Virus record (IMG/VR): IMGVR_UViG_3300046524_000594
Source of the DNA: an uncultured virus (IMG/VR IMGVR_UViG_3300046524_000594)
Taxonomy: Duplodnaviria > Heunggongvirae > Uroviricota > Caudoviricetes
Length of the DNA: 20,000 nucleotides
Direction: 5' to 3' (one strand)
The notes under the pieces are model-generated. The model was not told the origin of the DNA. It ran no database searches and saw only the letters and a list, made by a program, of their open reading frames with translations. Positions 2,131 to 19,480 of the stretch are shown one piece after another. Each line of letters begins with the position of its first letter. Positions within the stretch are counted from its first letter, which is position 1. Made by a program: the position numbers and the translations under genes.

Positions 2131-2171
2131 TCGGAACAAGTTGCCGAAGGCAAAATACTCAATGTGGCGAA

Positions 2172-2778: not shown

Positions 2779-3380
2779 GCTGCTCTCCCCTTCAGCTCTT
2801 TGATTTTCGCCCGGTACTGCGCCTTGATCTCTTGCAGGTCCGAGATGGTGTATTTGCGTGCCTCATGAGGCCCTTCGAGCCATGCCAGCTTTTCGGCACC
2901 AATCCTGTTCACCAAGCGAATGCGGTACTCGACCGCGTTGCCGGAGAGGTTGCGGTTACAGCGCACGCACTGGCGGTGAACGTTGAACGGCTCGAATCGC
3001 AGTTCAGGACAGGCGCCGACTGATCGGTAGTGGCCGGCGTCCCACCGGCTGCCGGTGATCAACCCTTCATCAGTGGCGATCGAATCGCAGCTGATGCATG
3101 GCAGGTGCGCGTCACGGAGACGGATGAAGGCGTTGAACTCTGTCTGAGCTTCGCGCATGTGCTCTGCCCTGCTCTTCAGCTTCTCCTTGCGAACCTTGAT
3201 CTCCCGGCGGTTCCGCTGAGCAATCGACTTGCGCTGCTTCTCCTGCGCCTGGCGGGCAAGTACCACCGCGCAGTCCGGCGAGCACCATTTCTGAAAGCTG
3301 CGCGTCGGGGTGAAGGTCACACCACACCCAGCGGCTCGGCAGCGCTTCGGCCGCATCGGCTTTGTGGACTGAGGGATCAC
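2775..3380 (-). CDS. ninG: NinG/Rap-family recombination endonuclease
   Basis: N-terminal Cys cluster (C..C...FQKWCSPDC), FNAFIRLRD..LPCISC, WDAGHYRSVGA..ELRF..NVHRQCVRCN. Confidence 0.92.
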   Translation of the reverse strand: MIPQSTKPMRPKRCRAAGCGVTFTPTRSFQKWCSPDCAVVLARQAQEKQRKSIAQRNRREIKVRKEKLKSRAEHMREAQTEFNAFIRLRDAHLPCISCDSIATDEGLITGSRWDAGHYRSVGACPELRFEPFNVHRQCVRCNRNLSGNAVEYRIRLVNRIGAEKLAWLEGPHEARKYTISDLQEIKAQYRAKIKELKGRAA

Positions 3381-3484
3381 AGCCCACCCCCGAACTGGCA
3401 GGCCACAGGCTGAGCGTGATACGCCGCTTCCAGCATCGTGACGACGCAGCGGGCGACACTTTTGAGGGCCTGATAAGTCTTCAT
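3377..3484 (-). CDS. Small hypothetical protein, 35 aa (not in ORF track)
   Basis: MKTYQALKSVARCVVTMLEAAYHAQPVACQFGGGL; ATGA and GTGA overlaps with both neighbours. Confidence 0.6.
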   Translation of the reverse strand: MKTYQALKSVARCVVTMLEAAYHAQPVACQFGGGL

Positions 3485-4068
3485 GCGTAGCTCCCGATCA
3501 TGTCAGCAGCGGACTGAGCCGCCTGCTCAGACTCAAAATGCGAAGACAGCACCAGTCGCCAGCAGGCGTTGAAAACGTCGCGATAAAGAGGCTCGAACGC
3601 CAGATCGTCCATTGATGACCAACTGATCGACTTGCGCTCCTTGCGGATGCCGTCGGGCGTCTGCACCAGGTGGAAATGCCCGGCCTCGATGGTGATCCAG
3701 TCGCGGAAGGCCTCGCGGCTCTTGTCCACCGCTGGGAAGCGCTCGGCGCGCTCGGCTTCGATCTGCGCAACGTACGCAGCCACGGCTTCTGACAGCTGAC
3801 CCGGCTTGCCGCTGGCCTTCTCGAAGAACTTGGCCAAGCCCTGGATGCCGCGCAACTCCTGCCGAGGCACAAGACCGCCGACTGGCTCCCAGTACTCCCA
3901 CGCCAGATCCAGCATCGAGAAGAACTTGCCGTGGAATTTTGCATTCCGCATCTTGGTGAACTTGCCGTGGATGACCTGACCGGCCTTCCACTTCTGCATG
4001 GTTTCGCGATCGGCTTCGGTGGCGGGCACCAGACCTTGAGCAGTGCGAATGAGGGCGACTTCAGCCAT
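3481..4068 (-). CDS. DUF1367-like nin-region protein, 195 aa
   Basis: ATG at 4068 with GAGG RBS. Motifs GLVPAT..D, RNAKFHGKFF, AFRDWITIEAG, SISWSSMD..F..LY. Confidence 0.8.
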   Translation of the reverse strand: MAEVALIRTAQGLVPATEADRETMQKWKAGQVIHGKFTKMRNAKFHGKFFSMLDLAWEYWEPVGGLVPRQELRGIQGLAKFFEKASGKPGQLSEAVAAYVAQIEAERAERFPAVDKSREAFRDWITIEAGHFHLVQTPDGIRKERKSISWSSMDDLAFEPLYRDVFNACWRLVLSSHFESEQAAQSAADMIGSYA

Positions 4069-4231
4069 GGCGAATGTCCTCGATTGCAGCCTCAAGGACA
4101 TAGACGGCCAGCAGTACCCAGAAGATCGGCCAGAGGAGGACGTACCTGTAAAAGAACGCCAGCCTGCTCGTGGACAGAGCTGTGATAATGGCTCCAGCGA
4201 AGTAGACGCACGCAAGTTGATCAAGCGTCAT
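4061..4231 (-). CDS. Small membrane protein, 56 aa (not in ORF track)
   Basis: MTLDQLACVYFAGAIITALSTSRLAFFYRYVLLWPIFWVLLAVYVLEAAIEDIRHG; GGAGG RBS; fills the gap and overlaps both neighbours. Confidence 0.65.
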   Translation of the reverse strand: MTLDQLACVYFAGAIITALSTSRLAFFYRYVLLWPIFWVLLAVYVLEAAIEDIRHG

Positions 4232-4772
4232 GGCTGGCCTCCCAGCTCATGGCTGCGTCGATCTGATCGCGAGCCATATTTTCGCAGCCCGGTACGCCGT
4301 CATAGGACTTTTGTAGCCAATCCAAGCGGGCGGCATCCTTGCGCAGCGCCTCGTTCTCGGCCTTGAGATTTTCGCTGGCGTGATAGAAGCCATCGCCGAT
4401 CATTTCGGCGTGATTTTGTTTTGCGACCGCGCATTCAGCTTCGGTTTTTAAGCGCTTGTTCTCGGCCTTGAGCTGATTCCAATGCATCTCTGCTTTTGGC
4501 CCATGGACGAAATCCACGATCTTCATGCGTTCAGATAGCCGCTCAATCTCTGCGATCAACTCCAGCACTGCGGCAGGGTTGGCGGCGAGCACCAAGTCCG
4601 CGTAGTCCTTGTTTTGGGCCATGAACTCGGGGAATGAGCGGTTCTGATGCACGTCGAAGACAATGCCGTTGTCGTTGCGGATGTACAGGGCGCCATAGCT
4701 CTGCATAAACCTCAGCGGCTGATGAGCCTTGCAACGCTCGGCGATGGCCTTCAAATCCTGAATGTCGGTCAT
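4221..4772 (-). CDS. Ead/Ea22-like phage protein, 183 aa
   Basis: ATG at 4772 with GGAGG RBS. AANPAAVLELIAEIERL motif followed by coiled coil. Confidence 0.7.
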   Translation of the reverse strand: MTDIQDLKAIAERCKAHQPLRFMQSYGALYIRNDNGIVFDVHQNRSFPEFMAQNKDYADLVLAANPAAVLELIAEIERLSERMKIVDFVHGPKAEMHWNQLKAENKRLKTEAECAVAKQNHAEMIGDGFYHASENLKAENEALRKDAARLDWLQKSYDGVPGCENMARDQIDAAMSWEASHDA

Positions 4773-4984
4773 TGGTAATCCTCCGCGAGCGACCACTTGG
4801 TGTTGTTCCGCTGGCTGTGATCAGAAGTGACAAGGCCATCGTTGCGCATCTTTTCAAGCTCACGCCGGATCTCTTTCGTCGTGTATGGCGTCACGTCGAA
4901 ACGAAACCACCAAGTGCAAAAGACGTTGCAGTTCTGAGCGCGGCATTGACGCATATAGGCAAGTATCTGTTCGCGCAGACTCAT
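4769..4984 (-). CDS. Hypothetical protein, possibly winged helix, 71 aa
   Basis: GGAGG RBS and coupled overlaps. IRRELEKMRNDGLV pattern. Confidence 0.65.
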   Translation of the reverse strand: MSLREQILAYMRQCRAQNCNVFCTWWFRFDVTPYTTKEIRRELEKMRNDGLVTSDHSQRNNTKWSLAEDYQ

Positions 4985-5097
4985 CGAAAAACCTCCTGCA
5001 GATTCGCAGGCGCAGTCACCCGCTGGACTTTGTGGTGCAGGCCATAACCGGCTACCACGACGATGATGGTCAGAACGATCCAGATTCGGTTGGTCAT
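4981..5097 (-). CDS. Small single-TM peptide, 38 aa (not in ORF track)
   Basis: MTNRIWIVLTIIVVVAGYGLHHKVQRVTAPANLQEVFR; ATGA overlaps at both ends. Confidence 0.6.
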   Translation of the reverse strand: MTNRIWIVLTIIVVVAGYGLHHKVQRVTAPANLQEVFR

Positions 5098-5879
5098 GCT
5101 ATAGCCCTCTGCTTCTGCAGCTCTTCGATGGCTTCCATGTGCTTGATCACACGCTCGTTTAGGTCGCGACGTTCCCGGCGGCGACGGTGAGCCTCGACCA
5201 GCTTGCGTTTGGTGTTTTGCAGGTGCATGGCTTGCTTCAGTTCGCGAATCTTCTGAGCGACGTTCGCGGAAGGCTTCGCAACAGTCCCGGTAAGCAGGCC
5301 CGCGATTGCACGGCCGTCTTCGGTGACCGGCTCATGGGTCATGTCGGCGATCAGCAGCTGTGCACGCTCTCGCGGGATGCGCTGCAGCTCGGCAGCCTTG
5401 TGGATGGCGGCCACGCGGCGACCAGCGTCGAACCCCAGCGATATTTTCCAGTTCACCGTCTGAGCATTGGTACGAGCCTCAGTGACGAACCGGTCGTAAG
5501 CACTGATGAACGCCATGCGCGCGCCGATCTTGTCGCCAGCATCAAGCACTGGGCGCGCAGCATTCAGGGCCAGCTGAATTTCATCGGTCATTACTACCGT
5601 GTCGAACTCATCGCTGGACGCCAGAGCGATGGCCCATGCTTCGTCACGGCCTGGGCGACCGTCCTCCGCTTGGATGCGATTGAGCACTGCGGCCAACGTC
5701 AGCTTGCCAGTCAGTTCGCGGCGGCAGGACTGGAGCGCTTTGCGAATTTCGCCCGCTGAGTATTCAGCGAGGTCTTCGGCCATCAGCTGAGCAGCGCCGG
5801 CACTGATGGTCTGACCCAAAGTTTCTGCGGTGGCGCAGATCGCCCCGGCCAGTTGTGCGATTTCGTCAGAGGAAAGCAT
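5094..5879 (-). CDS. Replication protein in the P position (helicase loader/inhibitor-like), 261 aa
   Basis: ATG at 5879 with AAGGGGG RBS, directly after the initiator. RPGRDEAWA motif. Function inferred from position. Confidence 0.6.
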   Translation of the reverse strand: MLSSDEIAQLAGAICATAETLGQTISAGAAQLMAEDLAEYSAGEIRKALQSCRRELTGKLTLAAVLNRIQAEDGRPGRDEAWAIALASSDEFDTVVMTDEIQLALNAARPVLDAGDKIGARMAFISAYDRFVTEARTNAQTVNWKISLGFDAGRRVAAIHKAAELQRIPRERAQLLIADMTHEPVTEDGRAIAGLLTGTVAKPSANVAQKIRELKQAMHLQNTKRKLVEAHRRRRERRDLNERVIKHMEAIEELQKQRAIA

Positions 5880-6834
5880 TGCGAGGTCCCCCTTCCCGGA
5901 TGTTATGGGCGGCCTGCTGCGCGGCGTTGATGTTCGCCTGGGTGTCTTCGATCTGGCGGGCGGTGCGGCCATTCATCTGGCGGCCAGTGGCCCACTGGGT
6001 GTGGTAGGCCTCAGCTTTGGCGATCAGGTTGGTGAGGCTGTGGCAGTCGTTGACGATGCGGGCGTCGTTGATGGTCAGGTAGTACGCCGCAACGCTATGG
6101 GCAACGTCGATGCCGAGGCGGTCAACCAGCTTGCCGAGAATTCCACCAGCGATAGCGTTCCAAACCGGCCAACACTGGTAGCGCTTGCGGTAGGCCATGG
6201 CGTAGTTCGCCCAGGCCTTGAACGTTTTGCAGTCGCGGTCTTTGGGACCTGGCATGTCGGCAGGGATCTCGACACGAGGAGCATCTGGGCGATCAACCAC
6301 AAGTACCAAACTCCCGGACTGGGTCGGCAGCGCCGCACCCTCCGGCAAGTCCTGACTTGTACCCTGATTGGTATCCTGATGATTGGTATCCTGATTTGTC
6401 GGAGATTTTTCCGACCCTTGCTCGGATTTTTTTCCGACTCTGCTCGGAGATTTATCCGAGGTAGATCGGATATTTTTCCGACCCTTGTTTTCAGGTGGGG
6501 TCGGATATTTTTCCGACCCATCGATTTTCTGGTTCCACTCGGCAGCTTTCGCGGTCAGGCGAAACAGTGTGATGTTGGAAGTACTCGAAAGCTGGATCAG
6601 TCCCGCCTCATCCAATGCCTTCAACATGCGGTACGCAGTGTCGGGTTTATCGGTGAGCAGCGGCAGTTCTTCGACGATCTTCGCCTTGCTCAGTGCAAAG
6701 AAAACGCCTTCGTCAGTGGTGACCGGCTTAGTCCAACTCGGGCAACCGTAGATGAAGGCAAACAGCAGGGCTTGCTGAGAGTTCAGCCCCCACTCCAGTG
6801 CCTTCACCTGGTTGATGGTTACGGTGAATTGCAT
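5866..6834 (-). CDS. Phage replication initiator (O-like)
   Basis: 322 aa with N-terminal wHTH-like region, and a central low-complexity segment that coincides with the iteron array. Confidence 0.8.
   Translation of the reverse strand: MQFTVTINQVKALEWGLNSQQALLFAFIYGCPSWTKPVTTDEGVFFALSKAKIVEELPLLTDKPDTAYRMLKALDEAGLIQLSSTSNITLFRLTAKAAEWNQKIDGSEKYPTPPENKGRKNIRSTSDKSPSRVGKKSEQGSEKSPTNQDTNHQDTNQGTSQDLPEGAALPTQSGSLVLVVDRPDAPRVEIPADMPGPKDRDCKTFKAWANYAMAYRKRYQCWPVWNAIAGGILGKLVDRLGIDVAHSVAAYYLTINDARIVNDCHSLTNLIAKAEAYHTQWATGRQMNGRTARQIEDTQANINAAQQAAHNIREGGPRNAFL
6364..6516. repeat. Replication origin: five palindromic iterons plus adjacent direct repeats
   Basis: TCGGA-N6-TCCGA starting at 6399, 6422, 6444, 6466 and 6501. 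TGATTGGTATCCTGAT direct repeats at about 6364-6396. Confidence 0.85.
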
Positions 6835-6835
6835 G

Positions 6836-7636
6836 TCAGGCCTTCCCGACCAATTTGGCCAATTCGAGGAAGCGATCGACGTACCAGTGAGGCTGCGTTT
6901 CGCGGGGGGATTGAGGGCTGGTCAGGTTCTTGCCGTAGGCAAGGCCCTTATCAGTGATCGACCAGAACGGGACGACCTCCTGCTTCGAGTTCTTGCGGGT
7001 CAGCACCTTGAGGTAGCCAGCGGCTTCGAGCTTTTTGTTGAAGGACACGACAGAACCGCCTAAGCCGAATTCCTTCAGCAATGCGGTAGCGGATTTGGTG
7101 GGCATGGAAGATCCGCCGGCGGCATCCGGCGCAGCGTCGACGGCGTAGCCTGGGAGAAACTTTGGATCGAGGCCATTGTTCTCCGCGATCTTGGTCAGCA
7201 TGAGCATCTGGCTGGACGGTGCAGGCTTCAGCAGGCGCGTGAAACACTCCATGATGGCGATTTCGCCGATTACTTTTGTTCCGTTCGCCGTGACGGCCTC
7301 ACGTGACGCCGACTGCTGCTCCAGTTCGTGCCAGCGTCGGATGACCTTCATACGCAGGCCAGCGCTGTAACCGGTGAGCAAGCAGTCTGTGTGCACGCGA
7401 TCAAGCAGATATTCGGTTTGCTCGCGGTTCCGGCCGTCGAGGTAGATGTGAGCAAAACTGCTCACATTAACTTTCAGCTCGGAAGCCATGGTTTGGATAT
7501 CACGCTTGACGTCTGGATGACGCTTACCGGTCAGGTTCGCAATCTCGCGCGAAGACATCGTGCGCGCCACGTTTTGCTGATGCTGAAAACGTGGCGCGGC
7601 TTGTGGGGTATTGATCAAGGTTTGATGGCTGTGCAT
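6836..7636 (-). CDS. Rha-family regulator/antirepressor with an ANT/KilAC-like C-terminus, 266 aa
   Basis: TMSSREIANLTGKRHPDVKRDI and GYSAGLRMKVIRRWHELE; C-terminal KSATALLK..ITDKGLAYG..ETQPHWY. ATG at 7636 with GAGG RBS. Confidence 0.8.
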   Translation of the reverse strand: MHSHQTLINTPQAAPRFQHQQNVARTMSSREIANLTGKRHPDVKRDIQTMASELKVNVSSFAHIYLDGRNREQTEYLLDRVHTDCLLTGYSAGLRMKVIRRWHELEQQSASREAVTANGTKVIGEIAIMECFTRLLKPAPSSQMLMLTKIAENNGLDPKFLPGYAVDAAPDAAGGSSMPTKSATALLKEFGLGGSVVSFNKKLEAAGYLKVLTRKNSKQEVVPFWSITDKGLAYGKNLTSPQSPRETQPHWYVDRFLELAKLVGKA

Positions 7637-7660
7637 ACTTGCCTCACTCGATTTGCAAAT

Positions 7661-7686
7661 AGCCACCCTGCCCGGTGGCTTTTTTG
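7661..7686 (+). terminator. Intrinsic terminator antisense to the PR operon
   Basis: AGCCACC-CTGCCC-GGTGGCT-TTTTT with the U-run on the plus strand. Confidence 0.7.
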
Positions 7687-7696
7687 TGTCTAAAAC

Positions 7697-8122
7697 TCAG
7701 GCGACCTTTACGGACTGCTTGAACACTTCCAGGCTGACGATCACTTCGTCCGCTTCCTTGATCAGTTCCGACTTTTCGCGAGAGCACACTCGCCCATCGG
7801 CCTGGGCGTCATAGGCGAGACGAGTCACGTCAGCCAGATCGACATGCAGGCGCATCAGTGCGGAATTGAGATCTGTAGGTGTTGGCTTCTCTTTCGGGAC
7901 TAGGTCAAACCCGAAGTGCTCGGCCCAAGCTTTCAGCGGGCGGAAATCCTCGGTGTACTTCATGATCCGGTGCAGCTCCTGCACGTTCATCTTGTGGCTG
8001 TCGTAGTCCGGGTTGGCTTTTTGCGACAGCAAAGTGCGCGACGGGAAGCTCGCGCCTTCGGCGATCCGGCTTGCACCGTGGGTGTCCACCACGTCGTAGA
8101 TGGCCTTCATCAAGTCCTGCAT
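7697..8122 (-). CDS. cII: CII-type phage regulatory protein
   Basis: 141 aa after cro. LLSQKANPD..H.M...EL, and ADGRVCSREK..LI..A C-terminus typical of the CII/CP76-like family. GAGG RBS. Confidence 0.75.
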   Translation of the reverse strand: MQDLMKAIYDVVDTHGASRIAEGASFPSRTLLSQKANPDYDSHKMNVQELHRIMKYTEDFRPLKAWAEHFGFDLVPKEKPTPTDLNSALMRLHVDLADVTRLAYDAQADGRVCSREKSELIKEADEVIVSLEVFKQSVKVA

Positions 8123-8140
8123 GTCACACCTCGAAAATTG

Positions 8141-8174
8141 TTACGTGGCGTTACGCCACCAGCGACGCGATCAT
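8141..8174 (+). promoter_or_regulatory. Putative CII-activated PRE-like promoter
   Basis: TTAC-N6-TTAC direct repeat (8141-8154) just upstream of the cII start, analogous to lambda TTGC-N6-TTGC. Weak -10 GATCAT at 8169-8174. Confidence 0.5.
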
Positions 8175-8203
8175 TTGTTTACCAACTGATCAAGGACGTA
8201 TCC

Positions 8204-8410
8204 ATGACCGACTCTTCCGAACTGCAAGGCGAGATAACCGCCCTCTGCTGCTTCCTGGATGCATTGGCATCCACCCTGCCCCTGTCTTCTCAGATGAGGC
8301 TCTGGCCTGCGTTTGAGCAGAAGGCCAGTCAGTTGCGTGATCGGTTGAGCCAAGAGGCCCTGCGCGGCTTCGAACTGGCGACGATTTCGCTTAGCTCGAA
8401 GCGCGGTTAG
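8204..8410 (+). CDS. Hypothetical protein between cII and cro on the opposite strand, 68 aa
   Basis: AAGGA RBS, ATG at 8204 (MTDSSELQGEITALCCFLDALA...). Stop overlaps the cro stop. Confidence 0.6.
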   Translation: MTDSSELQGEITALCCFLDALASTLPLSSQMRLWPAFEQKASQLRDRLSQEALRGFELATISLSSKRG

Positions 8411-8586
8411 GCTGCTTGAGGCTTGCTGCATGCTTTGAACTTCCCGCTGGTGAGGACTTGCAACTGAAACTGCCGCGCCTCTGGAACGGTTTCGCCCCAC
8501 ATGGTCACCGCGCTAGGACTGATACCCAGGGCGTCAGCAAGCTTGGTTTTACTGCCGAAGTGGGCGGCAACTTCTTTGGTCTTCAT
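8407..8586 (-). CDS. cro: Cro-family repressor, 59 aa (not in ORF track)
   Basis: MKTKEVAAHFGSKTKLADALGISPSAVTMWGETVPEARQFQLQVLTSGKFKACSKPQAA; HTH; divergent from cI; GAGGA RBS. Confidence 0.92.
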   Translation of the reverse strand: MKTKEVAAHFGSKTKLADALGISPSAVTMWGETVPEARQFQLQVLTSGKFKACSKPQAA

Positions 8587-8698: not shown

Positions 8699-9349
8699 AT
8701 GGATAGACATGAACGTATTGCCCGCGCCATTCAGCTGAGCGGCTTGAAGAAAGGCGAGATTGCTTCCGCTTGCGGAGTCGCGAACTCGGCCGTAACTCAA
8801 TGGATTACAGGGGAAAGCAAAAGCCTGAAGCCCGAAAACCTCTATGCCCTTGCGAAGGCGACAGGATTTCGAGCCGAATGGCTAGCCATTGGTGAGGGTC
8901 CAGAGAAAGAACCTGACTCGAACGTTGCGATGGCGGTACAGCCCGACATGATGTTCCGGTATCCGGTCATTTCGTGGGTCGCCGCGGGTGCCTGGGCCGA
9001 AGCTGTTGAGCCCTACCCGCCTGGCTTTTCTGATCGTTACGAGATGTCTGAGTACGATTCGAAAGGCCCAGCGTTCTGGCTAGAGGTCAGAGGTGACTCG
9101 ATGACATCACCAGTCGGTCAGAGTGTCCCCGAGGGCAGCCTAATCCTAGTGGACACTGAGGCGGACGCTTATTCCGGCAAGCTGGTGATTGCAAAGCTGT
9201 CGAACAGCGACAAGGCCACATTTAAGAAGCTGGTCGACGACGGTGGCAGACGGTTCCTCAAGCCTTTGAACCCCGCCTATCCGATTGAGGCGTGCGAGGA
9301 CGACTGCCGGATTATCGGCGTAGTCGTAAGGGCACTCATGAAGCTCTGA
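8699..9349 (+). CDS. cI: CI repressor (HTH plus S24 autopeptidase)
   Basis: N-terminal HTH; VAAG cleavage site; GDSM catalytic Ser; TFKKL catalytic Lys. Confidence 0.95.
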   Translation: MDRHERIARAIQLSGLKKGEIASACGVANSAVTQWITGESKSLKPENLYALAKATGFRAEWLAIGEGPEKEPDSNVAMAVQPDMMFRYPVISWVAAGAWAEAVEPYPPGFSDRYEMSEYDSKGPAFWLEVRGDSMTSPVGQSVPEGSLILVDTEADAYSGKLVIAKLSNSDKATFKKLVDDGGRRFLKPLNPAYPIEACEDDCRIIGVVVRALMKL

Positions 9350-9420: not shown

Positions 9421-10572
9421 ATGAAGAAGACGTATTCCAACAACTCTGACCACCGCCTACGCGCGGCGTCCAAAAGGGGGGCTCGGGGAAATCGCCCTAA
9501 AGGTACGGGCGCACCACTAGATCTCAACCCAATCTTCCTCAAACCCAATATCAAGTCACTTAAAGCGAATACATTGTTCTCGCCGCCTAGAGTCCAAGCA
9601 CCGTCTAAGCTGGATCTATACTCCAAATCAAACTTTGAGTTGTTTTGCAACTTCATAACCAACCTGAGCAACCTATCCGCGCACAACGAACGGGTTATCA
9701 TCTGCTTTAGGGACACTCATCGAATCACTGCTGCGGCGGCTTTGAGGCTTTTGGCTGAGGTTTCTCATCTGCTCCACACGCACAAGCACCTAACATTTGG
9801 ATGCTCGGTTTCACATCGCCGTCGCGGAAAATACAAAAATACCGATAGAGCAATCGAAGCTGTATTACAACAAATTGGTTTTTTCAAACTTATTGGACAA
9901 CCAGAACGCGCGCCTACTAACCGCGCGGATATTTCGATGTGGAGGCAAGAGTCTGGAATATTGGCAGACGGTACGCTCGCTGGCCGACTCCTCAACTGCT
10001 TACCTTCCTCCGTGTCAAAAAGATCAAAAGCACAGCTGTATAAAGGCGCAATTGAAGCCATGGCAAACAGCGCTGACCATGCCTACCCCATCGCAGAAGA
10101 TGCCTCGATTTCAATAGATAACAGATGGTGGATGCTCGTAGGCCTTAACCAGTCTAGCCTGACACTAATCGTATGCGACCTGGGTGTGGGAATTCCAGTT
10201 ACATTACCCAAGAAACATCCAGATACCATGCTCCAATCCATTTTCAGGACGTTTGGGATCGTGGGTAACGGAGATGCCGAGTTGATTCACGCTTCGACAT
10301 TCATCAAAAGAAGTAGGACAAACCAAACCCATAGAGGCAAAGGAGGTGCCGACATTCGTTCTATAACTGAGCACTTCCCATCTGCCCTGTTGTCTATCCG
10401 AAGTAATCGCGGGTGCTATGTGGTTGCGGGACCGGAGTATCAAGGTCGAGTCAGGCCAGATTACCGAACGATCGATGGGACTGATGATCGTGAGTGGTCA
10501 GCAAGCTACGACGGGTCCATCCGTGGTACGATGATAGAATGGACTGTGTCCTTGAAGGAATTGGAAAAATGA
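9421..10572 (+). CDS. GHKL/HATPase-fold ATP-binding protein (anti-sigma kinase-like) with a degenerate STAS-like N-terminal domain
   Basis: N-box EAMANSADHAY, G1 box VCDLGVGIP, G2 box RGKGG, terminal GTMIEW strand. GGAG RBS. AT-richer than the flanking genes. Confidence 0.8.
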   Translation: MKKTYSNNSDHRLRAASKRGARGNRPKGTGAPLDLNPIFLKPNIKSLKANTLFSPPRVQAPSKLDLYSKSNFELFCNFITNLSNLSAHNERVIICFRDTHRITAAAALRLLAEVSHLLHTHKHLTFGCSVSHRRRGKYKNTDRAIEAVLQQIGFFKLIGQPERAPTNRADISMWRQESGILADGTLAGRLLNCLPSSVSKRSKAQLYKGAIEAMANSADHAYPIAEDASISIDNRWWMLVGLNQSSLTLIVCDLGVGIPVTLPKKHPDTMLQSIFRTFGIVGNGDAELIHASTFIKRSRTNQTHRGKGGADIRSITEHFPSALLSIRSNRGCYVVAGPEYQGRVRPDYRTIDGTDDREWSASYDGSIRGTMIEWTVSLKELEK

Positions 10573-10913
10573 AGACAATATTTGTGAGAGAATTTTCTGA
10601 GTTTCCCGGGCCAAGATATGAATCTCTCGGTCCGCACTCTGGGGAAATATTCAGGAAGACTGTTCTTTTGCCAGCAATCGAAGATAGCCAAGGGGAGGTA
10701 TCTGTAGTACTAGATGGCGTATTCGGTTACGGATCGTCGTTTCTTGATGAAGCCTTCGGAGGTATGATCAGAGACGGTGTGTCAAATGAGATTGCGTTAA
10801 AAATATGTGAAAGGCTAGTTTCGGAAGATGACCCAACATTGCTTACCGAAATAACTCAATGGGTTAAAGAGGCTATTTCAGAGAGAGATTCGAAACGTGT
10901 CGACCCTACCTAA
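10569..10913 (+). CDS. STAS-like (DUF4325-like) protein, 114 aa
   Basis: ATG at 10569 overlaps the upstream stop (ATGA). FSEFPGPRY..G.HSGE.FR and VVLDGVFGYGSSFLDEAFGG motifs. Confidence 0.8.
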   Translation: MKTIFVREFSEFPGPRYESLGPHSGEIFRKTVLLPAIEDSQGEVSVVLDGVFGYGSSFLDEAFGGMIRDGVSNEIALKICERLVSEDDPTLLTEITQWVKEAISERDSKRVDPT

Positions 10914-11373
10914 TACTGGCGCAGACGTTGGTGCAATTGTAGGTTGGACGTTTGCCTTTATTGGTGTTGTCTCGACACTTTATGGTTGGCGAGTCAGAGG
11001 GCAACAGCAAAAGTGGCTCGCTAAAAAAAAGGATATCCACGAGGCCATCGATAGGGCCGTAAAATCCCTTATAGAATTTGAGGATTCGTCCCTTAGTTTC
11101 TGGACTGAAAAAGACACTAAGATTTCGCAGCAGCACCTTTTAGCTCTACACCGCAGAATGATCGTGGCATTCAAGCAGGTTTCAGAGTTCAGCGAAAAGG
11201 CGCTTCCATCTCAGTATCTTGCCGATTTAAAAAAATTTACGACCTTGGATTTTGAAAAAGCCAAACGACCTATCAGTCCGCAGGCGCCAAGAGTTGCGAA
11301 TATCGCTTTAGCGGCCGGCAGATTGCTGAATTCTAGCTATCTCATGAAGTCATGGGGCGACGTGAACACCTGA
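10897..11373 (+). CDS. Membrane-anchored helical protein, 158 aa
   Basis: GTG start overlapping the STAS gene. One N-terminal TM segment (VGAIVGWTFAFIGVVSTLYGW) followed by amphipathic helices. Confidence 0.75.
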   Translation: MSTLPNTGADVGAIVGWTFAFIGVVSTLYGWRVRGQQQKWLAKKKDIHEAIDRAVKSLIEFEDSSLSFWTEKDTKISQQHLLALHRRMIVAFKQVSEFSEKALPSQYLADLKKFTTLDFEKAKRPISPQAPRVANIALAAGRLLNSSYLMKSWGDVNT

Positions 11374-11393
11374 CCATTGCCAAAATCTTAATG

Positions 11394-11421
11394 GCCTGTC
11401 CGACATTGGACGGGCTTTTTT
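11394..11421 (+). terminator. Intrinsic terminator ending the cI/accessory operon
   Basis: GCCTGTCC-GACATT-GGACGGGC-TTTTTT. Confidence 0.85.
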
Positions 11422-11524: not shown

Positions 11525-11776
11525 ATGCTTCAGCAACCCGAGTTCACCCAGATTAAACCCCGCTCCTACGAGCAGATCGGCCACCGCGTCAAAGAGATCA
11601 TCAGCGATCCCAGTGTTCAAAAGGTTCAGTTCGTCACTGTCTCCAGGCTGCCCAACGAGGGCAAGTCCGACTGGGGGAGGCTGATGGATGAGATCGCCAG
11701 CACCCAAGGCATCCGAGTGCAGAGGGTCGATGAGGACTCCTTCAAGATCGGCTGGCGGGAATACTGTGAAGCCTGA
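11525..11776 (+). CDS. DUF1654-like protein, SOS-regulated
   Basis: GGAGG RBS. SYEQIGHRVKEIISDPSVQK..V..LPNE...W..LMDEI..TQGI pattern. Confidence 0.75.
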   Translation: MLQQPEFTQIKPRSYEQIGHRVKEIISDPSVQKVQFVTVSRLPNEGKSDWGRLMDEIASTQGIRVQRVDEDSFKIGWREYCEA

Positions 11777-11817: not shown

Positions 11818-11878
11818 TTCAGCAAGCTGAAAATATATATTCAGCATGCTTGACTGTTTATTTCAGATTGCTTAAATT
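11818..11878 (+). promoter_or_regulatory. OL operators and PL promoter
   Basis: TTCAGCAAGCTGAA (11818), TTCAGCATGCTTGA (11840) and TTCAGATTGCTTAA (11862) match the OR sites. TTGACT (11850), 17 bp, TAAATT (11873). Confidence 0.9.
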
Positions 11879-12185: not shown

Positions 12186-12371
12186 ATGAGCCTGAAAGAT
12201 CAGGGCTACCGCTTCTGCGTCAGCCCGAACAAGCAAGACGCCAGATGGCTAGCGCCGAACATCTGGAAAGCGATGCACGCCGACTGGATCGACGTGACGG
12301 ACTGGTCAAGCGAGAAGCTGGTCGCGTTCGTGACGCCCGAGCCGCAGCAGGAAGAGCTGTTCTCAGCGTAA
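12186..12371 (+). CDS. Hypothetical protein, first PL gene, 61 aa
   Basis: Strong GGAGG RBS. Not arginine-rich, so not N-like. Confidence 0.75.
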   Translation: MSLKDQGYRFCVSPNKQDARWLAPNIWKAMHADWIDVTDWSSEKLVAFVTPEPQQEELFSA

Positions 12372-12397
12372 AAGCAGTCGGCATTCGCAAGAGTGCC

Positions 12398-12554
12398 CAT
12401 CGGAGATTGATCGAAGCGTGCCCAAGCGGGCTGCAGCGCTAGGATCGCAAAGCCCCGTGAAGTTCCTGAGCCGGTATGAGCAAGACGGCCAATACCAAAA
12501 ACGCGGCGGGAAGCAAGCGGGCCAGCGCCCCGGTGCTTCGATCAATCTCCGATG
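12398..12554 (+). ncRNA. Structured RNA domain closed by a perfect 20-bp inverted repeat
   Basis: CATCGGAGATTGATCGAAGC (12398-12417) pairs with GCTTCGATCAATCTCCGATG (12535-12554). Confidence 0.55.
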
Positions 12555-12751
12555 CAGATGCAGGGCCGGGCTGACGGGCAAGTGTAAGACCTGAGGGATC
12601 GCGGGAATCGTGGTCGATAGAGTGAGTAAGCGCCCAGATGGTCACGGCGAGTCCAAGAATAAGCGGCTGAAACCTTCGCCCCGGTGAAACTCCGGTGTCA
12701 CTGAGGCCGCTAATAGTCATGCCGGGATCAGCTCCGGTCATCTGCACCCCA
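12554..12751 (+). ncRNA. tRNA-shaped RNA with a large central insert
   Basis: 7-bp acceptor-like stem GCAGATG/CATCTGC followed by A-CCCCA, stacked on a 5-bp T-like arm, with a D-like arm at the 5' side. Confidence 0.5.
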
Positions 12752-12846
12752 TTCAACAGGTAGCCACTGCCTTCTCAGTGAGCGAGCAGTACGCGTTTGA
12801 CTCACAGATTAACGCTACGCTTCCTGCTCACTCAAACGAGGCGTTA

Positions 12847-13092
12847 ATGATGAAAGTGAAAGAAATGATTGCTGCTCTACAAAAGCTTGATCCTGAGGTG
12901 ACCTTGCTCTCGCTTTGCGAGGACGCGGAGGTCCTGGAGAAGGGCCAAGCAATTCGAATATTCGAACCGTATTCTGCGGATATGTTCTTCGCGGATATGG
13001 GCCGCGACTCCGATTACAAAGGCCGGCTGAGTATCACTGCGGCCGGCGAGGGTCGAAAGCTCGCAAGCATCAACGTAACCACTGACTTTTAG
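12847..13092 (+). CDS. Hypothetical protein, 81 aa
   Basis: GAGG RBS before ATG at 12847. MKVKEMIAALQKLDPE N-terminus, common in phage proteins. Confidence 0.7.
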   Translation: MMKVKEMIAALQKLDPEVTLLSLCEDAEVLEKGQAIRIFEPYSADMFFADMGRDSDYKGRLSITAAGEGRKLASINVTTDF

Positions 13093-13667: not shown

Positions 13668-13858
13668 GCCCGCACATCCTGATCGACGTTGCGCTTGAAG
13701 GGCTTGAGGACTGGGACTGCCCTGCTTTCAACGAGGTGTTGGTGCAGAAGCAAATCACCGACCACCTCACCAATGGCGTCATCACCATCCCTGAGTTCCA
13801 CCACTACTGTGAGCGCCTGGTGAAAATTCTCCAGCGGCGCGGGAGGCTTGCGGCATGA
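13664..13858 (+). CDS. Hypothetical phage protein, 64 aa
   Basis: ATGA overlaps with both neighbours. Confidence 0.75.
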   Translation: MSPHILIDVALEGLEDWDCPAFNEVLVQKQITDHLTNGVITIPEFHHYCERLVKILQRRGRLAA

Positions 13859-14286
13859 GCAGAAGCGGATACAGCGACGACAACGATGACAACTGGTCTC
13901 TGATTTGTTGGCGCGGTGCTGTGAACTCAGCGCTGCGTGGCAAGCGCGGGCAGGCGTTCTTAACAGAGCTGGCCACCGCGCTCGATGCCATGCCAGTTAA
14001 GCGTCTGGTTACCGAGCAGCTTCAGGCCGACGGCGACTTCTGCACGCTCGGTGTGGTTGGTCAGTCTCGTGGTCTGGACATGACTGTCATCGACCCTGAC
14101 GACGCAGAGGCTGTAGCTGACAGATTCGGCATAGCCTAGGCCATGGCTCGCGAGATCGTTTGGGAAAACGATGATCACCCGGGGGTGTATGACCCTCAAC
14201 AGGGATGGCGGCGCGAGACTCCGGAAGAGCGCTGGACCCGCATGCGTAAATGGGTCGATAAGCAGATCAAGGAGGTTGCCCAGTGA
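13855..14286 (+). pseudogene. Phage hypothetical gene interrupted by an in-frame TAG at 14137-14139
   Basis: The frame continues after the TAG (AMAREIVWENDD...ETPEERWTRMRKWVDKQIKEVAQ) to a TGA at 14286 that overlaps the next start (GTGA). Confidence 0.75.
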
Positions 14287-18104: not shown

Positions 18105-18533
18105 TTACCTCTTGAGATAGAAGGTAACTAGTGCAACGGTGATACCTGCAAGCAAACTGAGAAGTCCAGAGATCACAAGCTTTCTATTGTCGGCACGTCG
18201 GGATTCAAAAAGCTCTAGACCTTTAGGGCCAATGTAAAAATAGGTCCCTTTGTCATCCAGCCCGCTCATCACATGAGCGGATTCGTAGACCTGAGCGCCT
18301 GGACCTTGGCAATAAGCCTGGAATGAATGAGTAATCAATGTGTCTCGAAAATCCATGTCAGCCTTGGGCATAGGCCCGGTGTAGCCAATATGGCCAGAGT
18401 TCATCAGGGCAACTAATGGGTAAAAGTCGCGGTGATCGCCGTCGCGCCGTTTGACAGAGCTCAACACCTCCGTAGCAGTCAGCGTATTGCAAGTGTGAAT
18501 GCGCTTAAGCAATCCCCAGTATGAGCTTTTCAT
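18105..18533 (-). CDS. Reverse-oriented moron with a C-terminal TM helix, 142 aa
   Basis: GAGAGG RBS before ATG at 18533. YIGPKGLELF then LVISGLLSLLAGITVALVTFYL. Lower GC. Confidence 0.75.
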   Translation of the reverse strand: MKSSYWGLLKRIHTCNTLTATEVLSSVKRRDGDHRDFYPLVALMNSGHIGYTGPMPKADMDFRDTLITHSFQAYCQGPGAQVYESAHVMSGLDDKGTYFYIGPKGLELFESRRADNRKLVISGLLSLLAGITVALVTFYLKR

Positions 18534-18610
18534 CGTTTCCTCTCGACCGGCATGCCGGTGCACTAACTAGTTTTCAACTTAACGTATCACGCCAGTGGCG
18601 AGGATCCCGC

Positions 18611-19480
18611 ATGAACCCCTACAAAATGTCCGGGACAACGGTCGTCAGCTTCTCTGGCGGCAGGACCAGCGCCTTCATGCTGCGAAAGGTGCTAGACAAT
18701 AACGCCGATCTGGGCGACCTGATCGTCACCTTTGCCAACACTGGCAAGGAGCACCCGGCCACCCTGGATTTCGTTCAGGAATGCTCAGTCCGCTGGGGCG
18801 TGCCTATTGTCTGGCTTGAGTTTCGGGATGACGAGCGAGGTTTCGCCATCGTCGACTACGAGACAGCCAGCCGCAACGGCGAGCCATTCGAGGCGCTGAT
18901 CAGGAAGCGCAGCTACCTGCCAAACCCGGTCACAAGGTTCTGCACTATCGATCTGAAAATTCGCGTGATCCACAAGTACCTCCGCATGGTTGGCTGCTCA
19001 ACAGAAGAAACGCCGGTGGACATGATGACCGGCATTCGGGCAGACGAGCCACGCCGAGTCGCGAAGATCCGGAATCGAAAGACGACCAGCGAGAGCAAGC
19101 ACGCCACGATGGTGATGCCGTTGGCTGACGCCGGCGTCGGTGTCCAGGACGTGACCGACTTCTGGAACACTCAGCCCTTTGACCTGATGCTGCCGACCAT
19201 CAATGGCCGAACGTTGGAAGGTAACTGCGACCTGTGCTTCCTCAAGGGTGCAAACCAGGTCTATTCGATTATCGCCAGCGACCGTGGCAAGCCGGTACGC
19301 AAAGCTGACTGGTGGGCCCGAATGGAGCGCACCGCGGTAGCCAGCAGCGGCATCACTGGGAACGGCGCCCTCTTCCGCTTCGACCGGCCGAGCTATCAGC
19401 AGATGCTCGACTATTCGGAAATTCAGTTCGACATGTTTACCGATTACGAGGAGACTATTGCATGTTTTTGCGGAGACTAA
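18611..19480 (+). CDS. PAPS-reductase-family (adenine nucleotide alpha hydrolase) protein, 289 aa
   Basis: PP-loop VVSFSGGRTS, FANTGKEH, RFCT..LK, GIRADE.RR, GNCDLCF, terminal CFCGD. GAGG RBS before ATG at 18611. Confidence 0.85.
   Translation: MNPYKMSGTTVVSFSGGRTSAFMLRKVLDNNADLGDLIVTFANTGKEHPATLDFVQECSVRWGVPIVWLEFRDDERGFAIVDYETASRNGEPFEALIRKRSYLPNPVTRFCTIDLKIRVIHKYLRMVGCSTEETPVDMMTGIRADEPRRVAKIRNRKTTSESKHATMVMPLADAGVGVQDVTDFWNTQPFDLMLPTINGRTLEGNCDLCFLKGANQVYSIIASDRGKPVRKADWWARMERTAVASSGITGNGALFRFDRPSYQQMLDYSEIQFDMFTDYEETIACFCGD

What the first reader, a model, noticed from the sequence alone, without database searches (positions are those of the whole stretch)
12554..12751. tRNA-shaped ~200-nt RNA in the early-left leader with complementary D-like and T-like loops
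Seen: GCAGATG (12554-60) pairs with CATCTGC (12739-45), followed by A-CCCCA. Stacked on it is GCCGG-GATCAGCT-CCGGT (12721-38), giving the 7+5 bp acceptor/T geometry. A 5' arm CCG-GGCTGA-CGG (12566-77) has GCTGA complementary to TCAGC in the T-like loop. The anticodon arm is replaced by about 140 nt with further hairpins (GATCGCG/CGTGGTC, CGCC/GGCG, AGCGGCT/GGCCGCT enclosing CCGG-TGAAACT-CCGG). Known: the phage P1 C4 and P4 CI RNAs are matured by RNase P. Inference: an RNase P-processed tRNA mimic acting as a regulatory RNA scaffold or a decoy for tRNA-targeting defences.
Basis: partly seen in the sequence, partly recalled or inferred. Interest (0 to 1): 0.7.

Follow-up and report, generated by a model that had tools for sequence, protein, structure and literature searches.

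The report
tRNA-shaped cargo RNA of Pseudomonas phages
A roughly 190-base RNA in a Pseudomonas prophage folds like a tRNA whose anticodon arm is replaced by a swappable insert; it belongs to an uncatalogued family that also occurs as a stand-alone gene in many Pseudomonas chromosomes, and what it does is still unknown.

Summary
Window 12554-12746 (+) is one copy of a conserved, sharply bounded element. It has a 7-bp acceptor-like stem stacked on a 5-bp T-like arm, a 5-bp D-like hairpin, and a 141-nt insert where the anticodon arm would be.

- **Relatives:** I collected 116 copies (98 distinct) from Pseudomonas prophages and chromosomes.
- **Covariation:** The three shell helices stay paired through many compensatory changes, with at least 14 different fully complementary acceptor stems. 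The insert falls into 34 unrelated sequence clusters.
- **Databases:** ARAGORN and Rfam 15 do not recognise the element, and six paper searches found no description.
- **Chromosomal form:** A ~176-210-nt relative is a single-copy gene with its own promoter-like element and terminator in 29 of 151 sampled genomes of the genus. This suggests the RNA itself is the product.
- **Loop-loop pairing:** Only a CUG/CAG core is invariant.

My best reading is a tRNA-mimicking chassis, co-transcribed with the early-left operon and released by host tRNA-processing enzymes, that carries an exchangeable effector domain. RNase P cleavage, the RNA ends and the function are all untested.

The parts
12554..12746 (+). 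Whole tRNA-shaped RNA (193 nt: shell plus insert plus discriminator-like A12746)
   Evidence: Full-length hit to my covariance model R1, 116.1 bits, E 2.4e-27. Homology to 21 viral contigs starts and stops here. The L014 copy is identical.
12554..12560 (+). Acceptor-like stem, 5' strand (GCAGATG)
   Evidence: Pairs with 12739-45. In alignment A7 the helix is 100% paired, and 6 of 7 pairs change on both sides. At least 14 different complementary versions occur.
12564..12579 (+). D-like hairpin: stem 12564-68/12575-79, loop GGCTGA 12569-74. The window copy has a G.G mismatch at 12565/12578.
   Evidence: Stem versions include GCCCG/CGGGC, GCCCA/TGGGC, GCGCA/TGCGC, GTGCA/TGCAC, GCCAG/CTGGC, ACGCA/TGCGT and GTGAG/CTCAC.
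12580..12720 (+). Insert ('cargo') in place of the anticodon arm. Domain I is 12596-12654 (inner stem 12609-16/12639-46). Domain II is 12662-12711 (inner hairpin 12678-84/12692-98).
   Evidence: RNAalifold consensus of 26 copies of this insert type; the sequence is nearly invariant, so there is little covariation. In relatives it is replaced by unrelated inserts: 34 clusters in 98 distinct copies.
12721..12738 (+). T-like arm: stem GCCGG/CCGGT (G.U closing pair), loop GATCAGCT
   Evidence: The stem directly abuts the acceptor 3' strand. Versions include GCCGG/CCGGC, CCCGG/CCGGG, GCCAG/CTGGC and GTCGG/CCGGC. It is 100% paired in A7, and 2 of 5 pairs change on both sides.
12739..12745 (+). Acceptor-like stem, 3' strand (CATCTGC), followed by A-CCCCA
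   Evidence: The tail after the stem varies between copies (ACC in 11 of the 35 end combinations, by my reading of the table). No CCA is conserved.
12398..12554 (+). Neighbouring upstream RNA module: a 20-bp perfect stem (12398-12417/12535-12554) closing a 117-nt insert. G12554 is shared with the acceptor stem.
   Evidence: the repeat finder I1. L216 has the same insert with a different but complementary closing stem, and the same module position is seen in >=120 viral loci that share a leader.
11850..11878 (+). Promoter-like site (TTGACT-17-TAAATT), a possible early-left promoter about 0.7 kb upstream
   Evidence: Consensus scan only. A terminator-like hairpin at 11393-11416 ends the CI/moron unit before it.

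Best explanation
Window 12554-12746 encodes a non-coding RNA that mimics the upper half and elbow of a tRNA. It has a 7-bp acceptor-like stem stacked on a 5-bp T-like arm, plus a D-like hairpin. The anticodon arm is replaced by a 141-nt two-domain insert. It belongs to an uncatalogued family found in Pseudomonadaceae, in which one conserved shell carries many unrelated inserts.

Proposed mechanism, all inferred:
1. The element is transcribed as part of the early-left operon, directly behind another long-stem RNA module.
2. The tRNA-like shell is recognised by host tRNA-maturation enzymes. RNase P would cut between U12553 and G12554, and 3' trimming would stop at about A12746.
3. This releases and stabilises the RNA.
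4. The exchangeable insert is the working part, binding a still unknown protein or RNA.

The chromosomal relatives have their own promoter-like element and terminator. This suggests the released RNA, not merely the cut in the mRNA, is the product. Phage copies may use or compete for whatever reads the host RNA's shell.

Shown here: conservation, boundaries, strand, helices, modularity and distribution. Inferred: processing, stability and effector role.
For: **Boundaries and modularity**
- The 25-mer is exact in 21 viral contigs. Homology starts at GCAGATG and ends at CATCTGCA, with unrelated flanks and several unrelated middles.
- There are 116 copies, 98 distinct, in 34 insert clusters. Three insert clusters occur with two wholly different but complementary acceptor stems.

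**Helices**
- In A7 (42 distinct sequences, phage and chromosomal), 91.3% of cells are paired, against 24-39% when partners are slid.
- The covariation score is 0.308 against 0.105 in shuffles (0 of 500 reach it).
- The acceptor is 100% paired with 6 of 7 pairs changed on both sides. The T stem is 100% paired (2 of 5). The D stem is 87.6% paired (2 of 5).
- Most other insert types fold into the cloverleaf-like shell without constraints.

**Strand**
- One search lists 20 G.U cells in 10 pairs on the + strand; these would be A.C on the other strand.
- The element is in the same orientation as the early-left genes.

**The RNA is a product**
- 29 of 151 genus genomes carry a single ~176-210-nt relative.
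- All 14 flanks examined show a conserved -10-like element about 7 nt before G1 and a terminator 10-20 nt after the stem.
- The neighbours are ordinary and differ between genomes.
- The RNAalifold cloverleaf of these copies has 12 compensated pairs out of 50.

**Link to tRNA processing**
- In prophage L281 the element ends an array holding tRNA-Ser(UGA), two more tRNA-like genes and Proteo-phage-1 RNA.
- Some inserts themselves contain tRNA-like arms (L184, L288).

**Not coding**
- No PHROG family matches the three overlapping ORFs.
- Copy lengths run from 85 to 210 nt.

**Present in RNA libraries**
- Contigs from 4 runs in 3 studies hold close relatives. This is weak evidence.
Against: - No RNA ends were seen. 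The RNA-library contigs run on beyond both ends of the element, and DNA carry-over is not excluded.
- The window's own fold is no more stable than shuffles, and its MFE uses the rival long pairing.
- The window copy carries a G.G mismatch in the D stem and an atypical linker, so it may be slightly decayed.
- The T loop is not a canonical T loop, and no CCA is encoded. Recognition by tRNA enzymes is therefore assumed, not shown.
- Loop-loop pairing has no covariation, and its outer pairs are lost in the chromosomal class.
- In some copies the acceptor continues into a 17-20-bp stem. That looks more like an RNase III substrate than an RNase P substrate.
- The sequences were gathered with structure-aware filters (a script requiring pairing; a covariance model). 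This inflates the percentage paired.
- Many copies are close relatives, so cell counts are not independent events.
- Neither a partner nor a target of the insert was found.
Confidence: 0.55

Rival explanations
1. It is only a cis-acting processing signal. The tRNA-like fold is a punctuation mark that lets RNase P and 3' nucleases cut the early-left transcript, setting the stability or expression of the flanking mRNAs. The excised piece has no function of its own, as with plant mitochondrial t-elements.
For: It lies between ORFs in a polycistronic operon, with no promoter or terminator of its own. It sits in an array of closed-stem modules just after a stop codon. Earlier notes from this scan proposed the same for other prophages (unchecked leads).
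Against: A stand-alone chromosomal relative has its own promoter-like element and terminator. A punctuation mark would not need a nearly invariant 141-nt insert, nor 34 alternative inserts.
Confidence: 0.15
2. It is a decoy or sponge for a tRNA-binding factor in phage-host conflict. Such a factor could be a toxin or defence enzyme that acts on the acceptor end or elbow of tRNAs, or a host tRNA-processing or modification enzyme.
For: The shell keeps exactly the parts read by enzymes that do not look at the anticodon. It is expressed from an early operon. The family is carried by temperate phages, and inserts turn over rapidly.
Against: No anticodon loop exists, so it cannot bait anticodon nucleases. 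No defence or counter-defence gene is consistently linked. A chromosomal copy under its own promoter is hard to explain as an anti-defence decoy. The conserved insert would be unnecessary.
Confidence: 0.12
3. It is a DNA-level feature: terminal inverted repeats of a small mobile or recombining cassette, or linker sequences for mosaic exchange between phages, with no RNA function.
For: It has sharp boundaries, unrelated flanks and interchangeable middles. One chimeric copy, L275, joins a type-A 5' half to a type-B 3' half. Chromosomal copies sit in different neighbourhoods.
Against: Three local helices are kept by compensatory change. G.U pairs favour one strand. In the chromosomal class a promoter-like element and a terminator frame the same strand. 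No transposase or integrase is adjacent in the loci examined.
Confidence: 0.06
4. It is a decayed tRNA gene, or a tRNA gene disrupted by an insertion, drifting without function.
For: ARAGORN and Rfam fail to recognise it. The window copy has a stem mismatch. Some arrays hold real tRNAs.
Against: The shell loops and the 141-nt insert are nearly invariant across 30 distinct copies of this type. The helices are kept by compensation rather than decaying. The family has at least 14 acceptor versions, all fully paired.
Confidence: 0.04
5. The complementary loops pair between molecules rather than within one, so the RNA forms dimers or rings, as phi29 packaging RNA does (recalled).
For: GCUGA and UCAGC are both in hairpin loops and nearly invariant in phage copies. 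A co-deletion in L184 keeps GCGA/UCGC.
Against: The chromosomal class keeps only 3 complementary bases. L304 lacks the D-loop partner. The element has no link to packaging genes and lies in the early operon.
Confidence: 0.03

Closest known systems
Engineered 'tRNA scaffold' for expressing recombinant RNAs, and tRNA-gRNA or tRNA-miRNA arrays (Ponchon & Dardel 2007; MHV68 tRNA-miRNA; recalled, not read here)
   Same: A cargo RNA is placed where the anticodon arm would be. The tRNA shell provides processing by tRNA enzymes and protection from nucleases. Many cargos fit one shell.
   Different: Those are engineered or eukaryotic-viral and use true tRNA sequences. This is a natural bacterial and phage family whose shell is not recognised as tRNA by ARAGORN or Rfam. 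Processing is not demonstrated here.
Phage P1/P7 C4 RNA and P4 CI RNA (RNase P-matured immunity RNAs; recalled)
   Same: Small phage RNAs cut out of an early or immunity operon transcript, with RNase P making the 5' end.
   Different: No Rfam hit to C4 or any other family at E<=10. No complementary target of 11 nt or more above chance in the window. This element is much larger, with a modular insert, and has a chromosomal relative.
Phage T4 stable RNAs 'species 1 and 2' in the tRNA gene cluster (recalled)
   Same: tRNA-like stable RNAs of unknown function, co-transcribed with phage tRNAs and processed with them. Prophage L281 has the element at the end of a tRNA array.
   Different: Different phage type and host. 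No sequence relation was tested. Most arrays here hold no true tRNA: ARAGORN called 1 tRNA-Ser and 1 odd 'tRNA-???' in the 106 locus scans.
tmRNA (SsrA)
   Same: The 5' and 3' ends form an acceptor/T-arm tRNA-like domain around a large internal domain. The gene is stand-alone with a terminator.
   Different: ARAGORN finds no tmRNA and Rfam has no hit. A real D-like hairpin is present. No tag reading frame was identified. The window copy has A3-U70, not G3.U70. No CCA is encoded.
Bacterial Y RNA-like YrlA (tRNA-mimicking module; recalled)
   Same: A non-coding RNA with T-like and D-like arms that mimics a tRNA elbow.
   Different: As I recall, YrlA is permuted, with its ends in the Ro-binding stem. 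No Rfam hit here. No Ro60/TROVE gene among the window ORFs scanned.
tRNA-like processing signals: plant mitochondrial t-elements and mascRNA/MALAT1
   Same: A tRNA-shaped fold inside a longer transcript that recruits RNase P and 3' processing.
   Different: The stand-alone chromosomal gene and the conserved cargo argue that here the excised RNA itself matters.
Proteo-phage-1 RNA (Rfam RF03044)
   Same: An orphan structured RNA of proteobacterial phages. It is present in this window at 2004-2083 (-) and lies directly upstream of the element in prophage L281.
   Different: A different fold and sequence. The element itself gives no hit to that model.

Membership tests
Canonical tRNA | Detected by tRNA finders or covariance models | tested here: not met
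   ARAGORN: 0 genes in the window. Rfam tRNA clan: no hit at E<=10 on 12300-12900.
Canonical tRNA | 7-bp acceptor stem stacked on a 5-bp T stem (12-bp minihelix) | tested here: met
   12554-60/12739-45 and 12721-25/12734-38 are contiguous. Both helices are 100% paired in A7.
Canonical tRNA | Anticodon arm with a 7-nt loop | tested here: not met
   It is replaced by a 141-nt insert. The short relatives L009 and L145 also lack a 7-nt anticodon loop.
Canonical tRNA | T-loop consensus (TTCRANN) and encoded or added CCA | tested here: not met
   The loop is GATCAGCT, or AGAYCAGCA in relatives. The tail after the stem varies, and CCA follows directly in only a few copies such as L323. CCA addition cannot be tested here.
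tmRNA | Detected by ARAGORN or Rfam; G3.U70; tag reading frame | tested here: not met
   No ARAGORN or Rfam hit. The window has A3-U70, while some relatives have G3.U70 (GCGGATG/CATCTGC). A tag frame was not searched for systematically.
P1 C4 / P4 CI type antisense immunity RNA | Covariance-model match | tested here: not met
   No Rfam family matched at E<=10.
P1 C4 / P4 CI type antisense immunity RNA | Loops complementary to target sites in the same operon | tested here: inconclusive
   Only one 11-nt antisense match in the 20-kb window, at chance level. Shorter seeds of 8-9 nt, as I recall for C4, were not tested.
P1 C4 / P4 CI type antisense immunity RNA | 5' end made by RNase P | not testable with these tools
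   The public runs available were held only as assembled contigs, which show no RNA ends.
YrlA / bacterial Y RNA | Rfam match; ends in a Ro60-binding stem; nearby rsr gene | tested here: not met
   No Rfam hit. The ends are in the acceptor-like stem. No TROVE-like protein among 32 window ORFs scanned against PHROGs.
t-element-like processing signal | tRNA-like fold inside a polycistronic transcript | tested here: met
   It lies between ORFs of the early-left operon with no terminator behind it.
t-element-like processing signal | No function beyond directing cleavage | tested here: inconclusive
   The stand-alone chromosomal relatives and the conserved insert argue against it, but no function was measured.
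New family proposed here (tRNA-shaped shell with cargo) | Acceptor 7 bp + 3-nt linker + D hairpin with (G/A)(G/A)CUGA loop + insert + T arm with AYCAGC loop + acceptor 3' strand | tested here: met
   The window scores 116.1 bits, full length, against model R1. All features are present, with one G.G mismatch in the D stem.

The most novel reading that the evidence does not exclude
Pseudomonas and its temperate phages share a natural 'tRNA scaffold' platform. A tRNA-shaped chassis is read by the host's tRNA-processing machinery, or by a dedicated chassis-binding protein. More than 30 unrelated RNA cargos have been swapped into it. Phages fire such cargos from the early-left operon to act on the host or on rival elements, and the chromosomal single-copy gene is the host's own member of the system. 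If so, this is a modular RNA-effector delivery system in phage-host conflict, and the chromosomal RNA is an undescribed, widespread Pseudomonas sRNA.
Probability: 0.3. Interest if true: 0.85.

Novelty: new variant of a known kind. Interest (0 to 1): 0.65.

Why it matters
tRNA mimicry by RNAs that do not decode is known from a handful of cases, such as tmRNA, YrlA, viral tRNA-like structures and mascRNA. This would add a large, modular bacterial and phage family.

- It was found in 48 of 151 sampled genomes of the genus and 28 of 151 of the family.
- It includes a probable new chromosomal small RNA with its own promoter-like element and terminator.
- It also covers up to about 900 nt of unannotated structured RNA in the early operon of isolated phages such as Aurca01.

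The findings give concrete, testable molecules for two questions: how phages use host tRNA-processing enzymes to make regulatory RNAs, and why one shell carries so many different inserts. The shell may also be useful as a natural RNA-expression scaffold for Pseudomonas.

Tried and rejected
- **Degenerate 3'-end pattern in viral contigs.** None held the element. One (L086) had a T-arm-like compensated hairpin and was not followed up.
- **Window region against named phages.** Only a 67-nt match in an unannotated faecal phage.
- **Own assembly.** It is not held (error). The nearest virus record, G001, has no match.
- **Rfam.** Nothing for the element at E<=10. Nothing relevant in 14 related loci at E<=1. 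Nothing for the five chromosomal-copy loci searched at E<=0.1.
- **VIPR guide RNAs (preprint 10.64898/2026.10.15.759431; outline and sections 3 and 17 read).** vrRNAs are tandem GGYNN pentamers, which are unlike this element. Rejected.
- **Antisense targets in the window.** One 11-nt and one 12-nt match, at chance level.
- **Coding reading.** The overlapping ORFs (105 aa and 72 aa on the - strand, 58 aa on the + strand) match no PHROG, and copy lengths vary from 85 to 210 nt.
- **RNA-library contigs.** They show relatives of the element in 4 runs from 3 studies but give no ends, strand or level. The uncovered flanks mean nothing, because the contigs come from related prophages with other flanks.
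- **Rival long pairing (D 5' strand with T 3' strand).** It is paired in 98 of 160 cells (61%), against 99-100% for the cloverleaf helices, in 32 of the 36 listed end combinations. That set was pre-filtered for cloverleaf pairing.
- **Weak covariance-model hits.** Window 7654-7816(-), L205:716-812, L202 and L321 were treated as chance or as other module types.
- **Earlier-findings look-ups.** By place and by sequence: nothing.
- **Paper searches.** No description of this RNA in the listings. PMC5870498 (passages read) was irrelevant.
- **PADLOC and Pfam on the low-GC genes next to CI.** Only a DUF4325 match in 10494-10913; 11525-11776, behind the terminator that ends that unit, matched DUF1654. 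No defence-system match for those genes.
Full report
**1. The observation**

- GCAGATG is at 12554-60 and CATCTGC at 12739-45. The repeat finder reports an 8-nt perfect pair, 12553-60/12739-46.
- The hairpin GCCGG-GATCAGCT-CCGGT is at 12721-38, directly abutting the 3' strand.
- CCG-GGCTGA-CGG is at 12566-77, and its loop GCTGA is complementary to TCAGC in the other loop.

The window alone is weak evidence. The fold of 12554-12751 is no more stable than dinucleotide shuffles (z = -0.10 on the + strand, 0.57 on the - strand). ARAGORN finds no tRNA or tmRNA in the window. Rfam 15 finds only Proteo-phage-1 RNA, at 2004-2083(-), and nothing at E<=10 in 12300-12900.

**2. Setting**

PHROG matches show a lambdoid prophage.
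- The minus strand (120-8500) carries CII-like, Ant-like, O-like, NinB, NinG and holin genes.
- The plus strand carries a CI-type repressor (8699-9349) and three lower-GC genes. A terminator-like hairpin follows at 11393-11416, then a promoter-like site at 11850-78.
- After that come small ORFs, the RNA region, then an exonuclease (15012), a Gam-like gene and an excisionase-like gene.

So the element lies in the early-left operon, on the sense strand, between ORFs 12186-12371 and 12778-13092. Exact matches to part of the element occur in nine genomes named Pseudomonas: P. baetica, trivialis, antarctica, edaphica, iridis, poae and three unnamed species.

**3. Relatives define a bounded, modular element**

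The 25-mer at 12721-45 recurs exactly in 21 viral contigs. When these are aligned:
- homology begins at GCAGATG and ends at CATCTGCA;
- the flanks are unrelated or mosaic;
- the two ends are constant while the middle comes in several unrelated versions.

In most relatives the element is the third module of a non-coding array that starts right after a stop codon.
- First come conserved leader hairpins.
- Module 1 is a 17-20-bp stem beginning CATCGG and ending CCGATG, closing a variable insert of about 100 nt.
- Module 2 is a hairpin of about 48 nt, GATGCGG...CTGCATC.
- Module 3 is the element studied here.

The window has module 1, a 20-bp perfect stem at 12398-12417/12535-12554. It lacks module 2. 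L216 has the same module-1 insert closed by a different but complementary stem.

In the isolated phage Aurca01 the array fills an unannotated 920-nt gap between CDSs, about 3 kb downstream of CI. Of the 80 leader-bearing loci with 900-nt flanks, 21 hold at least one copy of the tRNA-shaped element.

**4. The helices are real**

I built a covariance model (R1) from 17 copies with different inserts. After dropping seven weak or chimeric hits (window 7654, L205:716, L202, L178, L184, L275, L321), 116 copies remain. Of these, 98 are distinct, and their inserts fall into 34 clusters by shared 8-mers.

*Acceptor stem.* It occurs in at least 14 fully complementary versions:
- GCAGATG/CATCTGC, GCGGATG/CATCCGC, GCAGACG/CGTCTGC, GTTGATG/CATCAAC, GGGGATG/CATCCCC;
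- GCAGGTG/CACCTGC, TGATCTG/CAGATCA, CGATCTG/CAGATCG, TGATCCG/CGGATCA, TGGTCTG/CAGACCA;
- GTAGGTG/CACCTAC, GTAGGCG/CGCCTAC, ATAGGTG/CACCTAT, and GTGGTG/CACCAC (the last read from the L330 fold).

Three insert clusters occur with two wholly different acceptor stems.

*Pair counts.* On an alignment in a single register (A7: 42 distinct sequences with a 9-nt T loop, both phage and chromosomal), the count of structure pairs gave the following:

| Measure | Result |
|---|---|
| Cells paired | 91.3% (24-39% when 3' partners are slid) |
| Covariation score | 0.308 (0.105 in shuffles; 0 of 500 reach it) |
| Acceptor stem | 100% paired; 6 of 7 pairs changed on both sides |
| T stem | 100% paired; 2 of 5 pairs changed on both sides |
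| D stem | 87.6% paired; 2 of 5 pairs changed on both sides |

*The 8-nt T-loop class.* This class includes the window. Its D stem appears as GCCCG/CGGGC, GCCCA/TGGGC, GCGCA/TGCGC, GTGCA/TGCAC, GCCAG/CTGGC and GTGAG/CTCAC.

*Strand.* One search lists 20 G.U cells in 10 pairs, which favours the + strand.

*The rival pairing.* Pairing of the D 5' strand with the T 3' strand is kept in only 98 of 160 cells. It was scored on 32 of the 36 listed end combinations; one chance hit and three combinations with a 1-nt shorter 3' strand were left out.

*Caveats.* The script set was pre-filtered for pairing, the model-selected sets lean towards the modelled structure, and many copies are close relatives.

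*The window's own copy.* It is identical to L014. It has a G.G mismatch in the D stem (12565/12578) and the linker CAG instead of the usual AAT.

**5. The loop-loop pairing is not established**

Against it:
- In A7 the three central pairs (CUG/CAG) never vary.
- The two outer pairs are unpaired in 26 and 28 of 42 sequences, mainly the chromosomal class (D loop GACUGA, T loop AGACCAGCA).
- L304 keeps the AUCAGC T loop, but its D hairpin has a UUG loop.

For it:
- L184 has lost one base from each loop and keeps GCGA/UCGC.
- L286 has a G.U in place of a G-C.
- L178 has different loops that still share GGC/GCC.

The invariance could equally reflect protein recognition.

**6. A chromosomal relative shows the RNA is a product**

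In 151 genomes sampled from the genus, 48 have a hit at E<=0.001. I read the sequence of every hit listed.
- 29 genomes carry one copy of a 176-210-nt relative: GTAGGTG-AAG-ACGCA-GACTGA-TGCGC ... GCCGG-AGACCAGCA-CCGGC-CACCTAC-T.
- The other 19 have only prophage-type or unclassified hits. One of these, L321, is probably false.

In all 14 loci with long flanks:
- the gene is preceded by a conserved block reaching to about -95;
- that block includes a -10-like element, mostly TGCTATTCT, about 7 nt before G1, which suggests (by inference) a start at or next to the acceptor stem;
- it is followed within 10-20 nt by a GC-rich hairpin and a T run.

The neighbours are ordinary genes that differ between genomes. 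Examples are methionine aminopeptidase, a LysE-type exporter, MFS and LysR genes, a Cys/Met PLP enzyme and trmA. None is phage-like.

RNAalifold on these 14 copies gives a cloverleaf: a 7-bp acceptor, a 4-bp D stem, a long branched domain closed by a 6-bp stem in the anticodon position, and a 5-bp T arm. Of its 50 pairs, 12 are compensated. Rfam has no hit for these copies at E<=0.1.

At family level, 28 of 151 genomes have hits. Among the 10 new loci I read were further stand-alone versions followed by terminators (L323, L330).

**7. Links to tRNA biology**

- In prophage L281 the element closes an array of tRNA-Ser(UGA), two further tRNA-like genes and Proteo-phage-1 RNA.
- Some inserts contain tRNA-like arms: L184 (ARAGORN calls it 'tRNA-???'), L288 and L281.
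- Otherwise ARAGORN finds no tRNA in the arrays. The 106 locus scans gave only the L281 tRNA-Ser and the L184 'tRNA-???'.

**8. Expression**

The public runs available were held only as assembled contigs. Contigs from 4 RNA-library runs in 3 studies hold 95-99% identical relatives of 12554-12746. They continue into the flanks of related prophages. They therefore show presence in RNA libraries at best, and say nothing about ends or strand.

**9. Interpretation**

Shown here:
- a conserved, strand-specific, tRNA-shaped shell around exchangeable inserts;
- its location in phage early-left RNA arrays;
- a stand-alone chromosomal form.

Inferred:
- The shell is read by host tRNA-maturation enzymes. 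RNase P would cut at U12553/G12554, and 3' trimming would stop near A12746. The 7+5-bp stack is the length I recall these enzymes measuring.
- Copies whose acceptor continues into a 17-20-bp stem may be released by RNase III instead.
- The shell gives stability, and the insert is the effector.

This resembles the engineered tRNA-scaffold trick (recalled). The main rivals are a pure processing mark, a decoy for tRNA-binding factors, and a DNA-level cassette. The stand-alone gene, the conserved insert and the compensated helices argue against each in turn, but do not exclude them.

**10. Novelty**

No Rfam family matches. Six full-text searches found no description in their listings. The named phage records leave the region unannotated. 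Supplementary sRNA tables of Pseudomonas transcriptome papers were not searched and could list the chromosomal RNA under a local name.

I file it as a new variant of a known kind, the tRNA-mimicking non-coding RNAs.

Noticed in passing
window 12398-12554 (+): A second structured module lies directly upstream: a 20-bp perfect stem closing a 117-nt insert. L216 has the same insert with a different, complementary stem. In relatives this position holds many different inserts, some with a canonical GGGTTCGAATCCC T arm (L005, L141). It looks like an RNase III-type substrate.
   Followed up: partly
other genomes: L291-L303, L274, L305-L320 (for example L291:1501-1692): A single-copy chromosomal gene for a 176-210-nt tRNA-shaped RNA occurs in 29 of 151 genomes sampled from the genus. 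It has a conserved upstream block and a Rho-independent terminator, and Rfam has no match. It is probably an undescribed Pseudomonas small RNA.
   Followed up: partly
window 2004-2083 (-): A Proteo-phage-1 RNA (RF03044, 61.7 bits) lies in the late part of the right operon. In prophage L281 the same motif sits directly upstream of the tRNA-shaped element, after three tRNA(-like) genes.
   Followed up: partly
window 13855-14286 (+): Two adjacent in-frame ORFs (94 aa and 47 aa) match the N- and C-terminal parts of one PHROG family (phrog_25637). They are separated by a single TAG at 14137-39, followed by GCC ATG. This could be a nonsense mutation, a natural split, or read-through.
   Followed up: partly
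window 9421-11373 (+): Three lower-GC genes lie between CI and a terminator-like hairpin (11393-11416), in a rexAB-like position. They are a 383-aa protein (phrog_3364), a DUF4325 STAS-like protein and a 158-aa protein. None has a PADLOC match. This may be a lysogen-expressed exclusion module.
   Followed up: partly
relatives, for example L270:4070-4130, and downstream of the element in L004, L012, L015, L017: A conserved hairpin, GGT(A/G)GCCACTGCC(T)(T/G)CCCAGTGAGCGA, is followed by AGGAG and an ATG with a stop after 0-2 codons (ATG-TAA, ATG-AAG-TAA, ATG-GAC-TAG). This is a start-stop mini-ORF motif. The window keeps the hairpin (12763-12786) but not the mini-ORF.
   Followed up: no
L184:714-785 (-) and L288:1501-1687: Some inserts carry tRNA-like arms. 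L184's module-1 insert is called 'tRNA-???' by ARAGORN, with a 2-base anticodon. L288's insert has a canonical GCGGG-TTCGAAT-CCCGC arm. The effect is one tRNA-like shape nested inside another.
   Followed up: no
L275:1501-1580 (-) and L308:151-318 (-): These are decayed or recombinant copies. L275 joins a type-A 5' half to a type-B 3' half, so its acceptor strands cannot pair. L308 has two unpaired positions at the outer end of its acceptor stem.
   Followed up: no
window 18521-19480 (+): A PAPS-reductase-like gene matches SspD (PADLOC, E 1.1e-16), a component of phosphorothioate DNA-modification systems.
   Followed up: no
window 7654-7816 (-): A weak hit to my model R1 (18.1 bits, E 0.03) lies inside coding sequence and includes a hairpin CGCCCAGGCCGATGGGCG. 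It is probably chance.
   Followed up: no
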